The notes under the pieces: generated by a model
Seen by the model: only the letters and a program-made list of their open reading frames with translations
What the model was told of the DNA's origin: nothing
Databases searched by the model: none
Shown here: positions 5,502 to 9,492 of the stretch, one piece after another
Layout: each line of letters starts with the position of its first letter
Numbering within the stretch: the stretch's first letter is position 1
Virus genome (UHGV): UHGV-0069723
DNA from: a virus
Direction: 5' to 3' (one strand)
DNA length: 41,341 nt
Position numbers and translations under genes: made by a program

Positions 5502-6086
5502 TTATTGTTTGCTTTTTTCGTTCTGGTTGATGACAAATTCAATGTAACTTTCGATCTTTGCTTTCTCGGTTTCGGGTAACAATGCGTAGCGCGAGCGGTC
5601 ATAGTTGATAGTCGCAGGGTCGTGCGGGTGAATCAGTAGTTCATATCCGTGACGCCCGAATGCGGATGCAACATTCTCCAGGGTGGAAATGGAAACGCTG
5701 ACCTCATTGTTTAACAGGCGACTGATTGTCACCTGGGCGACGCCGGATGCGCGGTGAAGTTTTCCCTGCGTTGAAAGGTCGCGGCTTTCGCTCATCCAGC
5801 GTTCCAGGTTGTGAGCCGCCAGCTGACCAATGTCGCTTGGGCCGACAGGCTGAAAACCTTCCTGAGAAAGCGAGCGATCGATATCAAGCCAGTTACGGGG
5901 TTTATTGGCGGCAGCTTCAATTTTTCGCGCAACCTGGTCGCCGATAACCTTCTTGCCAAGAGCCCAGCGGTTTACCAGATTTGCCTGAGTTCCAAGTTTT
6001 TCTGCCATCCGCGTCTGAACACCATTGAATTCACGGTCGATCAAGTCGTTGAGATTTTGCCTGCGGACGTCCTGGATACTTTTCAT
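5502..6086 (-). CDS. Prophage repressor candidate with two HTH domains and no S24 peptidase domain
   Basis: 194 aa; two XRE/Cro-C1-like HTH segments (QTRMAEKLGTQANLVNRWALG and ASGVAQVTISRLLNNE); divergent from the cro-like gene across an operator-bearing intergenic region. Confidence 0.7.
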   Translation of the reverse strand: MKSIQDVRRQNLNDLIDREFNGVQTRMAEKLGTQANLVNRWALGKKVIGDQVARKIEAAANKPRNWLDIDRSLSQEGFQPVGPSDIGQLAAHNLERWMSESRDLSTQGKLHRASGVAQVTISRLLNNEVSVSISTLENVASAFGRHGYELLIHPHDPATINYDRSRYALLPETEKAKIESYIEFVINQNEKSKQ

Positions 6087-6141
6087 TTTCTGGAAAATCG
6101 CCTCATATATGAATCAGTAGATGATTCAATTTAAAGCAATA

Positions 6142-6204
6142 TTACCCAACAGGTAAATGCACCTCATAGGTAACTATCCTTGATTTTTGTTACCTTATGG
6201 GTGA
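6142..6204. promoter_or_regulatory. Right operator cluster: three tandem TTACC-N5-GGTAA-type sites
   Basis: TTACCCAACAGGTAA (6142-6156, perfect), GCACCTCATAGGTAA (6159-6173, half-site), TTACCTTATGGGTGA (6190-6204, one mismatch); candidate -35 TTGATT at 6180-6185. Confidence 0.6.
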
Positions 6205-6240
6205 ATATTTATTATCTGAAATAAATATCAGGCAATAGCT

Positions 6241-6621: not shown

Positions 6622-6822
6622 ATGGAAATTATTACACGTATTGATGCCGCAAAGCGCGGACTTAAACGCTACTACACCGGAAAACCATGTAAGCACGGAC
6701 ATGACAGTGAACGCTGGGTTTACAACGGACACTGTGTTGAGTGCACTATGGAATCAAACCGTCGCATCAGGGCAGAGATTAAGCAGATCATGATTAATTC
6801 CTCCCCACAACATTCAAGCTGA
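6622..6822 (+). CDS. Small Cys/His-rich putative zinc-binding protein
   Basis: 66 aa from ATG 6622 (MEIITRIDAAKRGLKRYYTGKPCKHGHDSERWVYNGHCVECT...); the track ORF extends upstream to 6559 through an implausible hydrophobic N-terminus; weak RBS. Confidence 0.45.
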   Translation: MEIITRIDAAKRGLKRYYTGKPCKHGHDSERWVYNGHCVECTMESNRRIRAEIKQIMINSSPQHSS

Positions 6823-6837
6823 TAGCGGAGATTAATC

Positions 6838-7653
6838 ATGAGCAGACATGCAACAGATTGGGCCTGGGAGACAGATCCAGGTAGCTCGTCATTAAAGCTC
6901 ATACTGCTCTCGATGGCTGACAGAGCCGATGAATATAACCTCTGCTACCCCAGCATAGAACGCCTCGTTAAAGACACTTGCCTGAATAAAAAAACCGTGC
7001 AGGCCGGGCTTATATCGCTCATGAAAATGGGGCTTATTTCAGATACCGGAGAGAGAAAGGGTGCGACGAAAAGAGTGCGGGTTTTCTCTCTTAATATAAC
7101 CAAAAACGGGAACATTAAAGGCAACCGGGAAGGGGGTAATGAACCCGAAAACGGTAATGTTACCGAAAACGGGAATATACCCAAAAACGGGATGTTGAAT
7201 GATCCCAAAAACGGGATGTTGAATGATCCCAAAAACGGGATCCAGAACCAGTCATATAACCAGTCATTTAACCAAGAGAGGGAGAGCAGGACAAAAAGCG
7301 GGGATTCTGTGCCTCATGACCCCGGCGCAAACAACGCCGTGATGAATAACTTTGTTCCTCCTGGTGGGCCAGGGCAATTAGGCAAATTTGTCATGCATGA
7401 ACAATGGCAGCCATCAGATGACTTTCTTCGGAAAAGCTCATTGCAGGGGATCTACCTGGACAGTCTGCCAACGGCACAGGAGCTTGCAGAGTTCAGAATT
7501 TACTGGATGGCTGAGGGTAAGGCATACCATCAGGCACAGTGGGAGCAGAAGCTGGCAAGGCGGCTGCAGATTAGCAGACAGAAGCAATCAACATTACCTG
7601 ATAACAACGTTCCGCACTGGAACAGCCCTGAAGCGTGGGAGGATTTCTTGTGA
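6838..7653 (+). CDS. Replication initiator, lambda O-like (N-terminal winged-HTH) with internal origin iterons
   Basis: 271 aa; N-terminal LSMADRADEYNLCYPSIERLVKDTCLNKKTVQAGLISLMKMGLI...; central repetitive peptide (KNGN/PKNGM) coincides with DNA iterons; followed by a P-like gene. Confidence 0.75.
   Translation: MSRHATDWAWETDPGSSSLKLILLSMADRADEYNLCYPSIERLVKDTCLNKKTVQAGLISLMKMGLISDTGERKGATKRVRVFSLNITKNGNIKGNREGGNEPENGNVTENGNIPKNGMLNDPKNGMLNDPKNGIQNQSYNQSFNQERESRTKSGDSVPHDPGANNAVMNNFVPPGGPGQLGKFVMHEQWQPSDDFLRKSSLQGIYLDSLPTAQELAEFRIYWMAEGKAYHQAQWEQKLARRLQISRQKQSTLPDNNVPHWNSPEAWEDFL
7100..7239. repeat. Origin-type iterons (six copies of CC[CG]AAAAACGG[GT]) inside the O-like gene
   Basis: Copies at 7100, 7144, 7163, 7180, 7204, 7228; includes an exact tandem 24-bp duplication (7191-7214 and 7215-7238). 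Confidence 0.65.
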
Positions 7654-8435
7654 ACAACGTTTTTACCGCGATACAAAACCGTGACGGAGAAGCCCTTTCT
7701 CGCATGTCAGGTTATGAGCATCAGTACGTCAACAATGACAATGTGGTGAACATGTCAGCAGAGAGGCTTGTTGATGCCCTTTTCAAACAGCTGAAACAAC
7801 TGTTTCCGGCGGCAGTAGTAACCAACCTGAAGACTCCAGAGCAGGAAGTTGCTGCAAAACAGCAGTGGATTGCTGCGTTTGCCGAAGGGGGGATCCGAAC
7901 CCGTGAACAGGTTTCTGCTGGTATGCGCCACGCCCGCGCCAGTGAATCTCCGTTCTGGCCGTCGCCAGGGCAATTCATCAAGTGGTGTAAAGACAGCAAG
8001 ATGGTTCTTGGCGTCACCATTGACGATGTGATGGCGGAGTTTCACCGGTACAGCAAGGAAAAAAGTTTATATCCTGGTGGTCCCGAAAGATTCCCGTGGC
8101 GACATCCGGTTATGTACTGGGTCGTATGTGATACCCGCCGTGCAATGTATCAGCGCCAGCTTAGCGAGATTGAGGTTGAGAAACACGCGCGCAGGCTGCT
8201 CGATGATTGGGCGAAAAAGGTAGCTTCCGGACAGCAGATACCCGATCCGGTGATCAGCATACAGGCAAAGCCAGAACCCATGAGTACGCCTCCGGACACA
8301 GGGAGAGACGTTTACCATCCACCAGGGCGAAGTTTCGGGTGTATGCCTAACGCCGCCACATTGGGGGGAATAACACCGGCACAGTGGCTGATGGAGGAAT
8401 ACAGGCGGGGAAAGGCGGCAGGATTTATCAAGTAA
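7635..8435 (+). CDS. Lambda P-like replication protein (helicase loader)
   Basis: 266 aa; QVSAGMRHARASESPFWPSPGQFIKWCKD resembles what I recall of the lambda P core; no Walker A; start may be GTG 7635 or GTG 7650, overlapping the O-like stop. Confidence 0.7.
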   Translation: MGGFLVNNVFTAIQNRDGEALSRMSGYEHQYVNNDNVVNMSAERLVDALFKQLKQLFPAAVVTNLKTPEQEVAAKQQWIAAFAEGGIRTREQVSAGMRHARASESPFWPSPGQFIKWCKDSKMVLGVTIDDVMAEFHRYSKEKSLYPGGPERFPWRHPVMYWVVCDTRRAMYQRQLSEIEVEKHARRLLDDWAKKVASGQQIPDPVISIQAKPEPMSTPPDTGRDVYHPPGRSFGCMPNAATLGGITPAQWLMEEYRRGKAAGFIK

Positions 8436-8472
8436 TACCAGCGCGATAGCGCATTTTTTTACGCCTTGATAG

Positions 8473-8549
8473 TTACCTTCTGGGTAACAAAGTATTCTAA
8501 ACTCTATTGATTTCGTGTCTTATGTGGTTTTTAATTACCTCAGGGGTAA
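8473..8549. promoter_or_regulatory. Two perfect TTACC-N5-GGTAA sites (8473-8487, 8535-8549) with candidate promoters
   Basis: TTACCTTCTGGGTAA and TTACCTCAGGGGTAA; TTGATA (8465-8470) and TTGATT/TTTAAT promoter-like hexamers interleaved; second site ends 3 nt before the ATG at 8553. Confidence 0.55.
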
Positions 8550-8897: not shown

Positions 8898-8958
8898 ATC
8901 GACGATCTTTTTAGTTATCAATGTAATCAATAAGTTATGTGGATAAGCGAGGGTAAAG

Positions 8959-9492
8959 ATGGAAAGTAATATCAAAGGGTTAGTTGCCGCCGGGCATGAG
9001 ATGGCTTCGGAACTGAAAGCAGAATGTGGTGCCGTTGATATGCGCAGTGTGGCAAAGCTGATCAGCGATTTGGCAACGCAACTGGAAGTGCAACTGGTGC
9101 GTGCTAATGCGATGGCCGAAGACCAGCAGAAAGCGATTGAGTCAATTAAGCAGGCTGATTCGGCTGTTAAGTTGGCACACGAGAAGTTTTCGGCGCTGGC
9201 GGCGGAGAATGCGGCAATGCATGAAGCTATTGAAGCCGTTCGGAGTGTTGCGGATAACTCCAGTGGAATTGCCGGATGGCATTTGAATGGCGATATCGCT
9301 ACATGGGAAGAGATTCTTCCTGAAATTAACGATATCGAAACCCCAGCCACCGATGCTTTCCTGGCTGAAGTACGGGCGCAGGGGGTAGAGATGTTCTCAG
9401 AAAAATTCGGAGGTGGCACTCCGCTATCCAATATGGTCAAAGAGGTTGCGGCTGATTTTGCGGCGAAGCTTCGCAAAGGAGGCAACCAGTGA
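8959..9492 (+). CDS. Hypothetical protein
   Basis: 177 aa ORF, same strand, ends 4 nt into the next ORF. Confidence 0.6.
   Translation: MESNIKGLVAAGHEMASELKAECGAVDMRSVAKLISDLATQLEVQLVRANAMAEDQQKAIESIKQADSAVKLAHEKFSALAAENAAMHEAIEAVRSVADNSSGIAGWHLNGDIATWEEILPEINDIETPATDAFLAEVRAQGVEMFSEKFGGGTPLSNMVKEVAADFAAKLRKGGNQ

What the first reader, a model, noticed from the sequence alone, without database searches (positions are those of the whole stretch)
7100..7239. Replication origin iterons embedded in the O-like initiator gene
Six copies of CC[CG]AAAAACGG[GT], including an exact tandem 24-bp duplication, lie in the linker of the initiator ORF, mirroring the lambda arrangement where ori is inside gene O. 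The duplication may reflect recent iteron gain.
Basis: seen in the sequence. Interest (0 to 1): 0.45.

Follow-up and report, generated by a model that had tools for sequence, protein, structure and literature searches.

The report
Phage replication origin inside its initiator gene
The repeats are real and are almost certainly the binding sites at which this E. coli prophage starts copying its DNA, laid out inside the initiator's own gene as in phage lambda; next to them is a second, much more widely conserved repeat that I could not find described.

Summary
Observation confirmed. Six copies of [AC]CC[AG]AAAACGG[GT] lie at 7099-7239. The last 62 nt are an exact 24-nt tandem (x2.6), the strongest tandem repeat in the window.

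The window is a phiV10-like (Uetakevirus) E. coli prophage. The repeats sit between a winged-helix N-domain (Pfam HTH_36) and a DnaT-like C-domain of a 271-aa initiator. A lambda-P-type helicase-loader gene follows.

In 31 relatives from four proteobacterial classes the layout is the same. An array of dyad-symmetric repeats follows the N-domain, and its sequence changes with lineage while the symmetry is kept. In at least 18 loci the copies are read in two or three reading frames, so the DNA, not the peptide, is conserved.

Directly 3' of the last iteron, at a fixed distance, are 2-4 copies of a ~12-nt GAAYC motif (window 7245-7280). It is far more conserved than the iterons.

Copy number is polymorphic (4-11) among near-identical E. 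coli prophages, and the window allele is the commonest. The tandem therefore reflects ongoing gain and loss, not a one-off recent gain.

Verdict: a lambda-style iteron origin built on a different initiator family. Nothing was tested experimentally. The iterons are unsurprising; the GAAYC array is the interesting part.

The parts
6838..7653 (+). Initiator gene (271 aa): winged-helix N-domain (aa 1-86), repeat-encoding linker (aa 88-147), DnaT-like C-domain (aa ~180-265)
   Evidence: Pfam HTH_36 E 1.8e-10 and DnaT E 1.2e-15. PHROG 1032 'replication initiation protein' E 1e-108. PDB DnaT C-domain chains 4ou6/2ru8/6aep E 1e-19 to 1e-21. AlphaFold N-domain pLDDT 92, winged helix.
7099..7110 (.). 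Iteron 1 (ACCAAAAACGGG), distal and degenerate
7144..7155 (.). Iteron 2 (CCCGAAAACGGT), 18-nt unit
7162..7173 (.). Iteron 3 (ACCGAAAACGGG), 18-nt unit
7180..7191 (.). Iteron 4 (CCCAAAAACGGG), first 24-nt unit
7203..7216 (.). Iteron 5, full dyad TCCC-AAAAAC-GGGA; GATC at 7201
7227..7240 (.). Iteron 6, full dyad TCCC-AAAAAC-GGGA. Its dyad centre lies 11.5 nt before the first GAAYC, as in 31 relatives. GATC at 7225 and 7239.
7180..7241 (.). Exact 24-nt tandem array (2.6 units); the unit number is polymorphic among relatives
7245..7280 (+). Three 12-mers GAACCAGTCATA / TAACCAGTCATT / TAACCAAGAGAG: the family-wide GAAYC array, proposed unwinding or ssDNA-capture element
   Evidence: Duplex stability -48.7 against an ORF mean of -54.3 kcal/mol per 40-mer.
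7650..8435 (+). Lambda-P-family helicase loader. Start GTG 7650 overlaps the initiator stop (GTGA); GGAGG at 7638-7642.
   Evidence: Pfam Phage_lambda_P E 1.5e-56; PHROG 109 'P-like helicase loader'; phiV10 annotation; sequence.

Best explanation
The 7099-7280 stretch is the prophage's origin of theta replication, embedded in the initiator gene.

Inferred mechanism:
1. Dimers of the initiator's N-terminal winged-helix domain bind the six dyad-symmetric sites (core TCCC-A5C-GGGA). The perfect 24-nt-spaced copies next to the 12-mers are likely the primary sites, and the degenerate distal copies are auxiliary.
2. The resulting nucleoprotein array destabilises the adjoining GAAYC 12-mer array (7245-7280) and captures one of its strands. 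The partner is most plausibly a conserved part of the N-domain, helped here by the ssDNA-binding DnaT-like C-domain.
3. The P-like protein, translationally coupled to the initiator, delivers host DnaB to the opened DNA.

Shown: the repeats, their dyad symmetry, DNA-level conservation, fixed architecture, domain identities and copy-number polymorphism. Inferred: binding, unwinding, helicase delivery, and that replication starts here.
For: Gene identities:
- HTH_36 plus DnaT-like initiator followed by a lambda-P-family gene.

Same position as lambda:
- In lambda the iterons begin at O codon 117, directly after the PF04492 domain (aa 22-115).
- Here they begin at codon 88, directly after the winged helix, which ends near aa 86.

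Architecture in 31 loci (29 distinct):
- The last iteron's dyad centre is 11.5 nt before the first GAAYC.
- Watson-Crick complementarity of the six outer arm pairs is 122/174 in that register and at most 69 in any other, with 2-4 pair types per position, so changes are compensatory.
- Examples: CCCAAAAACGGG, CCCAAAATTGGG, GTACCAATATTGGTAC, GTGCCAAAAGTGGCAC, GTCGGAAAAATCCGAC, GGGCAGGAGCTGCCC.
- Arm sequence changes along with recognition-helix residues: KKT with CCC, R[DE]TxF with GTCGG, SxR[AT] with GCAG.

DNA rather than peptide is conserved:
- Iteron copies fall in 2-3 reading frames in at least 18 of 31 loci, for example V. salinus PKNG/PKTE/SQKR.
- GAAYC copies are 13+12 nt apart in most gamma-proteobacterial loci (NQS then EPV) but 12+12 in the window (NQSYNQSFNQ). 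The first copy is read as NQS, EP/ES or RT in different lineages.
- blastn similarity to Vibrio H20-like and Edwardsiella GF-2 phages is confined to window 7093-7276 and 7138-7255, although the N-domains are 57% identical as protein.
- All four Pro codons in the iterons are CCC (6% of Pro codons in the window's long ORFs) and 5 of 6 Gly codons are GGG (17%).

Other support:
- GAAYC-N6-9-GAAYC occurs 39 times at the anchor and 3 times elsewhere in 366 kb scanned on both strands.
- No other comparable repeat array exists in the window.
- The domesticated chromosomal counterpart DopC (HTH_36 plus DnaT_C next to the P-like DopE) is reported to lack iteron-like sequences and not to act as an origin (PMC5509034).
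- Lambda and Stx phages show the same arrangement, with 4 or 6 iterons and the ones nearest the unwinding region bound best (PMC7466680).
Against: - No experiment on this phage or, as far as I could find, on any member of this initiator family.
- There is no strongly AT-rich tract. 7240-7279 is only about 1.9 SD less stable than the ORF mean, and the least stable 40-mer of the ORF lies at the other end of the array (7081).
- No DnaA box or IHF site lies in the region.
- The cumulative GC-skew minimum near 6.5-7.0 kb coincides with the switch of transcription direction, so it does not discriminate.
- Within the window all six copies share one frame, so the DNA-level argument rests on relatives.
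- Anchoring the alignment on GAAYC makes the enrichment count partly circular.
Confidence: 0.75

Rival explanations
1. The sites bind the initiator but serve autoregulation, copy control or titration (as plasmid iterons also do). Unwinding and helicase loading would then occur elsewhere, for example in the AT-rich intergenic DNA at 6100-6240 or 8440-8540, or near the DnaA box at 8938.
For: The least stable DNA of the region is intergenic (6105-6230, 8498). A perfect DnaA box flanked by two IHF-consensus sites lies at 8925-8982. The iteron region is only mildly AT-rich.
Against: 6100-6240 is the divergent repressor/cro promoter region. The fixed-register GAAYC array next to the last iteron in 31 loci argues for a functional unit at this spot. 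The lambda precedent places unwinding directly beside the iterons (PMC7466680). The DnaB-loader gene directly follows.
Confidence: 0.12
2. The repeats are only a slippage-prone, low-complexity N/G/P-rich protein linker. The DNA has no cis-acting role.
For: All copies in the window are in frame, and unit lengths (18, 24, 12) are multiples of three. The peptide PKNGxLN is itself recognisable across many gamma-proteobacterial relatives. Copy number varies freely.
Against: The same DNA motif is read in 2-3 frames within and between loci. Dyad symmetry is kept through compensatory changes. Rare codons CCC and GGG are used throughout. DNA similarity to distant phages is restricted to this stretch. 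The domesticated DopC is reported to lack such repeats.
Confidence: 0.04
3. Sub-claim rival: the GAAYC 12-mers are not an unwinding or ssDNA element. They would be duplex binding sites for a conserved host protein, or extra low-affinity duplex sites for the initiator that bend or phase the array.
For: They are about 45% G+C and not a classical AT-rich DUE. They are conserved across hosts from alpha- to delta-proteobacteria.
Against: Lambda, in the same host, lacks them. They co-occur with unrelated C-domains and different partner genes: P-type, DnaB-type 'Ban', a 969-aa replication protein, or none recognisable. They therefore track the N-domain family rather than the host or loader. No DnaA, IHF or promoter consensus is present.
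Confidence: 0.3

Closest known systems
Phage lambda ori-lambda within gene O, with P as DnaB loader
   Same: The origin repeats lie inside the initiator gene directly after its DNA-binding domain. The repeats have internal dyad symmetry with an A-rich centre (lambda TCCCTCAAAACGAGGGA; here TCCCAAAAACGGGA) and 18-24 bp spacing. The element thought to open lies on the 3' side. A P-family gene follows, overlapping the stop codon.
   Different: The N-domain is Pfam HTH_36, not Phage_rep_O (hhalign probability 4.5%). The C-domain is DnaT-like, not the lambda O C-terminus. There are six rather than four iterons. The strongly AT-rich tract is replaced by conserved GAAYC 12-mers.
Stx phages 933W and P27 (lambda-type O, six iterons)
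   Same: Iteron number differs from lambda by tandem gain. The iterons nearest the opening region are bound best, and the extra distal ones still matter (PMC7466680). Here the proximal copies are perfect and the distal ones degenerate.
   Different: Those phages carry true lambda O homologues, and their iteron number is fixed per phage type. Here it varies from 4 to 11 among near-identical prophages.
DopC/DopE of Cellvibrionales and Oceanospirillales (Brezellec et al. 2017, PMC5509034)
   Same: Identical domain architecture: HTH_36 plus DnaT C-domain next to a lambda-P-family protein.
   Different: DopCE is a resident chromosomal pair reported to have no iteron-like sequences and no origin function. 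The window copy is in a prophage and carries the full repeat set, so it looks like the phage-borne ancestral state.
Iteron plasmids (RK2 TrfA, F RepE) and oriC, with repeated 13-mers or 8-mers in the DUE
   Same: An array of initiator sites sits beside 3-4 tandem short repeats whose sequence and position matter, and one strand of which the initiator binds (PMC4081077). The GAAYC array has the same size, number and position.
   Different: Those DUE repeats are AT-rich and lie outside genes. No DnaA boxes are present here. The initiator has a single winged helix rather than WH1 plus WH2.
Winged-helix replication organisers DnaD (B. subtilis) and staphylococcal RepA_N

Membership tests
Lambda-type origin (ori inside the initiator gene, O/P module) | Initiator gene immediately followed by a lambda-P-family helicase-loader gene | tested here: met
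   PF06992 E 1.5e-56; PHROG 109; GTGA overlap at 7650-7653
Lambda-type origin (ori inside the initiator gene, O/P module) | Four or more direct repeats with internal dyad symmetry, inside the coding sequence just after the DNA-binding domain | tested here: met
   Six copies at 7099-7239; symmetry and position conserved in 31 loci
Lambda-type origin (ori inside the initiator gene, O/P module) | Strongly AT-rich unwinding tract adjoining the last iteron | tested here: inconclusive
   7240-7279 is 40% G+C, with dG -48.7 against an ORF mean of -54.3 (SD 2.9). This is not comparable with lambda's A-tract. A conserved 12-mer array occupies the position.
Lambda-type origin (ori inside the initiator gene, O/P module) | Initiator binds the repeats and the fragment supports replication | not testable with these tools
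   Requires EMSA or footprinting and a replication assay
Lambda O protein family (Pfam PF04492 Phage_rep_O) | N-domain matches PF04492 | tested here: not met
   No PF04492 hit at E<0.01. Lambda O itself scores 5.7e-36. hhalign of the family profile against lambda O gives probability 4.5%.
Lambda O protein family (Pfam PF04492 Phage_rep_O) | Lambda O C-terminal (P-binding) domain | tested here: not met
   The C-domain is DnaT-like. Relative GF-2 does have the lambda O C-terminus on the same N-domain/iteron cassette.
HTH_36-type phage initiators (PHROG 1032, 6643, 391 'replication initiation / O-like') | N-terminal HTH_36 winged helix with conserved MSxDAxxWAW...LADRADE | tested here: met
DopC/DopE domesticated pair | HTH_36 plus DnaT_C protein next to a P-like protein | tested here: met
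DopC/DopE domesticated pair | Resident chromosomal gene without iterons | tested here: not met
   Prophage context, 99% identical to phiV10-like phages, iterons present. A DopC locus could not be fetched for direct comparison, so its lack of iterons rests on PMC5509034.
E. coli primosomal protein DnaT | C-terminal ssDNA-binding domain | tested here: met
   aa 180-265 match DnaT 85-170, E 7e-21
E. coli primosomal protein DnaT | DnaT N-terminal domain | tested here: not met
   The DnaT matches cover only aa 180-265 of the query. The N-terminus is HTH_36.
Plasmid-type iteron origin | DnaA box(es) within the origin | tested here: not met
   The nearest TTWTNCACA is at 8938, 1.7 kb away
Plasmid-type iteron origin | Tandem short repeats in the opening region beside the iterons | tested here: met
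   Three 12-mers at 7245-7280, conserved family-wide. That they are the opening region is inferred.

The most novel reading that the evidence does not exclude
The GAAYC 12/13-mer array is a sequence-specific origin-opening or ssDNA-capture element. It would be read by a conserved surface of the HTH_36-type initiator N-domain, for example the invariant N-terminal MSxDAxxWAW helix. If so, this whole pan-proteobacterial phage initiator family shares one 'origin core' (last iteron plus 12-mers in fixed register) while iteron specificity and helicase-recruiting C-domains are swapped freely. That would be a phage counterpart of DnaA-trios or the DnaD recognition element.
Probability: 0.35. Interest if true: 0.7.

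Novelty: new variant of a known kind. Interest (0 to 1): 0.45.

Why it matters
This prophage module is in about 8% of complete E. coli genomes (424 of 5426), and in phiV10, an O157:H7 phage. Its origin has not been mapped as far as I could find.

The analysis gives exact coordinates for a minimal origin and a ready-made allelic series of 4-11 iterons for testing how site number affects replication.

More generally, it defines a portable cassette: winged helix, cognate dyad iterons and GAAYC 12-mers. This cassette recurs with different helicase-recruiting domains across Proteobacteria. It offers a simple rule for predicting phage origins in this family from sequence. It also offers a tractable system for asking how a single winged-helix initiator opens DNA.

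Tried and rejected
- Single-sequence AlphaFold of the whole protein was useless (pLDDT 38). Only the N-domain with an alignment gave a model.
- hhalign of the N-domain profile to lambda O was not significant.
- DnaA-box, IHF and sigma-70 promoter scans found nothing in the array.
- GC skew is confounded by transcription direction.
- Literature searches for phiV10 or epsilon15 plus iterons, for HTH_36 plus iterons, and for the literal motif strings found no description of these repeats. The string hits were unrelated primers.
- The lead that E. coli K-12 Rac oriJ might be an experimental test was dropped. K-12 ydaU is DUF1376, a different family.
- Polymorphism among 44 close alleles is too sparse to test constraint. 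There are 5 variable sites in the iteron cores, 4 of them at the first or last core position.
- The 95-aa minus-strand ORF 6945-7232 was rejected as a by-product of the repeats.

Full report
**What the window is**

The initiator gene 6838-7653 is 100% identical to an E. coli chromosome and 96-99% identical to Escherichia phage phiV10 and its relatives (Uetakevirus). It occurs in 424 of 5426 complete E. coli genomes.

The surrounding genes are those of a temperate-phage early region. A leftward recombination operon and repressor lie at 5502-6086 (-). Rightward come a small cro-position gene and a terminator, then the 271-aa ORF, a lambda-P-family gene and a DUF1064 gene.

**Check of the observation**

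Six copies of a 12-nt core start at 7099, 7144, 7162, 7180, 7204 and 7228. The consensus is [AC]CC[AG]AAAACGG[GT].

- A slightly degenerate pattern gives 4 matches against 0.06 expected, and no shuffle of 100 reaches 4.
- At up to two mismatches, every match in the 41 kb lies in this 141-bp cluster.
- The last 62 nt are a perfect 24-nt tandem of 2.6 units, score 124, the best tandem repeat in the window. Upstream of it is an 18-nt-period stretch.

**The protein**

- Pfam finds HTH_36 (aa 18-67) and the DnaT DNA-binding domain (aa 184-252).
- The C-domain matches solved E. coli DnaT C-domain structures at E 1e-19 to 1e-21.
- PHROGs place the protein in 'replication initiation protein' families, and the next gene in 'P-like helicase loader'.
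- With a 73-sequence alignment, AlphaFold models aa 1-86 at pLDDT 92 as a winged helix preceded by an extra N-terminal helix. Confidence collapses at aa 90, exactly where the repeats begin.
- The protein is not a sequence homologue of lambda O. It has no PF04492 hit, and hhalign probability is 4.5%.
- The P-like gene most likely starts at GTG 7650. GGAGG lies 8 nt upstream, and the start overlaps the initiator stop as GTGA.

**Close relatives: copy number**

Among 80 IMG/VR loci with a 99-100% identical N-domain, the iteron count ranges from 4 to 9 through gain or loss of 18- and 24-nt units. The window arrangement (45, 18, 18, 24, 24) is the commonest, at 43 of 80.

- phiV10 has the same six iterons but one more 12-mer.
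- The 'BP9' record has one 24-nt unit fewer.
- Protein clusters reach 311 aa, which is 7.6 units and 11 iterons.

The exact duplication is therefore one state of a continually expanding and contracting array, not evidence of a particular recent gain.

Among 44 distinct alleles of the same length, four of the five variable sites in the iteron cores are at the first or last core position. The linker beyond the repeats varies at all three codon positions. The data are too few for a formal test.

**Distant relatives: the main evidence**

I examined 31 loci (29 distinct). Their N-domains are 29-87% identical to the window's. The hosts and sources are:

- Enterobacterales, Vibrio, Pseudoalteromonas and Marinobacterium;
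- Wohlfahrtiimonas and Acinetobacter;
- Pseudomonas, Aeromonas and Burkholderia phages;
- a Zoogloeaceae MAG, Methylotenera, Sphingobium and Desulfovibrio.

Every locus has the same layout: winged helix, then an array of repeats, then 2-4 copies of GAAYC at about 12-nt intervals, then an unrelated C-terminal region.

*Dyad symmetry.* Aligned on the first GAAYC, the last repeat is dyad-symmetric about a point 11.5 nt upstream.

- The six outer arm pairs are complementary in 122 of 174 cells in that register, and in at most 69 in any other.
- Each position shows 2-4 different complementary pair types.
- The arms differ by lineage while the symmetry and an A/T-rich centre persist. Examples are CCC/GGG, GTACCA/TGGTAC, GTGCCA/TGGCAC, GTCGGA/TCCGAC and GGGCAG/CTGCCC.
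- The arms change together with residues of the predicted recognition helix.

This is what is expected of sites bound by a dimeric winged-helix protein.

*DNA, not peptide.*

- In at least 18 of the 31 loci the iteron copies lie in two or three reading frames. In Vibrio salinus the same CCCAAAAACGG is translated PKNG, PKTE and SQKR.
- The GAAYC copies are 13 and 12 nt apart in most gamma-proteobacterial loci, giving NQS then EPV. In the window they are 12 and 12 nt apart, giving NQSYNQSFNQ. Across lineages the first copy is read in all three frames.
- blastn similarity between the window and the Vibrio and Edwardsiella phages is confined to the repeat stretch (window 7093-7276 and 7138-7255), although their N-domains are 57% identical as protein.
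- The window's iterons use CCC for all four prolines and GGG for five of six glycines. These codons make up 6% and 17% of their families in the window's long ORFs.

**The GAAYC array**

- The junction consensus is CA|GAAYCNNYCA. G, A, A and C at the four defined positions of GAAYC are present in 28-29 of 29 distinct sequences.
- GAAYC-N6-9-GAAYC occurs 39 times at the anchor and 3 times elsewhere in 366 kb, counting both strands. The anchor was chosen on this motif, so that count is partly circular. The background rate of 0.008 per kb is not.
- The motif travels with the N-domain whatever follows. C-domains include DnaT-like (window, Marinobacterium, PPompW type), the lambda O C-terminus (GF-2) and others.
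- Partner genes include P-type loaders, a DnaB-type helicase (Acinetobacter AB1), a 969-aa replication protein (Stx2a_F403), or none recognisable (H20, Marinobacterium).
- Lambda, in the same host, has no such motif after its iterons.

The motif therefore tracks the initiator family, not the host or the loader.

It is only mildly unstable: -48.7 kcal/mol per 40-mer against an ORF mean of -54.3 (SD 2.9). It contains no DnaA box, IHF site or promoter.

Its number, unit size and position match the repeated 13-mers or 8-mers of oriC, RK2 and F unwinding elements. There the initiator binds one strand sequence-specifically (PMC4081077). They also recall the DnaD recognition element of B. subtilis oriC (PMC10201434). 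I therefore propose it is the opening or ssDNA-capture element. This is inference, at roughly 45% confidence.

**Comparison with the known**

Lambda's four annotated iterons begin at O codon 117, directly after the PF04492 domain. They are dyad-symmetric with an A-rich centre and are followed by the AT-rich tract and then P (PMC7466680). The window mirrors this in position, symmetry, spacing and gene order. It differs in both initiator domains and in the nature of the adjoining element.

The exact domain architecture (HTH_36 plus DnaT_C beside a P-like protein) has been described for the domesticated chromosomal pair DopC/DopE. That paper reported no iteron-like sequences and no origin function there (PMC5509034). 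This is consistent with the repeats being an origin feature that is lost on domestication. I could not retrieve a dopC locus to verify this directly.

I found no paper describing the iterons or the GAAYC array of this family. The library searched is incomplete, so absence of a report is not proof of novelty.

**Circumstantial support for autonomous replication**

- E. coli HL15 and SF10 each carry the phage both in the chromosome and as a 41,027-bp circular record.
- An 8,461-bp circular record (pZ1323HEC0067-2) contains a sister-lineage initiator plus P module and no other typed replicon.

Both could be assembly products, so I give them little weight.

**Verdict**

The origin interpretation is well supported by comparative evidence but untested experimentally.

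The initiator is a lambda-O analogue, not a homologue. The 'recent gain' remark should be replaced by 'polymorphic array'. The most interesting element is the neighbouring GAAYC 12-mer array, which is conserved across Proteobacteria in fixed register with the last iteron.

Noticed in passing
window 8925-8982: A perfect DnaA box TTATCCACA (8938-8946, minus strand) is flanked by two IHF-consensus matches (8925-8937, 8970-8982). They lie in the gap between the DUF1064 gene and ORF 8959-9492, 1.7 kb downstream of the iterons.
   Followed up: no
window 7201, 7225, 7239: Three GATC (Dam) sites overlap the arms of the last iterons: three in 42 bp, against about one per 530 bp in the window. GF-2, Phaseolibacter and Superficieibacter relatives also have GATCCC arms; Vibrio phage H20 does not. 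Methylation or SeqA control is possible.
   Followed up: partly
window 7188-7231, minus strand: Terminator-like hairpins are formed by the facing arms of neighbouring iterons plus the T5 run. This is probably a by-product of dyad-symmetric tandem sites.
   Followed up: no
window 7192-7200 and 7216-7224; spacers in L003, L004, L087, L091, L096, L116: The spacer of the 24-nt unit contains a conserved TTGAAT (TTTGAAT in many relatives) across Enterobacterales, Vibrio, Pseudoalteromonas, Marinobacterium and Acinetobacter phage AB1. Unexplained.
   Followed up: no
L002 (PP488543 'Escherichia phage BP9', 138 kb Vequintavirus) and PP350014 'phage PH444' (115 kb): Both records carry this temperate-phage repressor/initiator/P module near a record end. 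They are probably chimeric assemblies.
   Followed up: no
NZ_CP079771 / NZ_CP079768 (L121): E. coli HL15 and SF10 each have the phage in the chromosome and also as a 41,027-bp circular 'plasmid' record.
   Followed up: partly
L120 (NZ_CP148379, 8,461 bp, circular): A small circular record holds racR/ydaS/ydaT-type immunity genes, a sister-lineage HTH_36-DnaT-like initiator (with iterons and GGAACCCAAAGGAACCC) and a P gene. No other replicon is typed. It may be a natural mini-replicon or an assembly artefact.
   Followed up: partly
L100 2501-2950 (Granulosicoccaceae MAG): The initiator ORF ends at a TAG inside the GAACCTATCAGTAG repeats. The protein would consist of only the N-domain and the iteron-coded part.
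   Followed up: no
proteins P0121-P0240: All 120 best profile hits are 70-165 aa long. Many are annotated as partial, and among those inspected many break off or change frame within the iteron-coded stretch. This suggests short-read assemblies and gene calls often break at these repeats.
   Followed up: no
window 6622-6822 (+): A small ORF just upstream of the initiator has a Cys/His pattern (CKHGH...CVEC). It has no Pfam hit and is annotated as hypothetical in phiV10.
   Followed up: no
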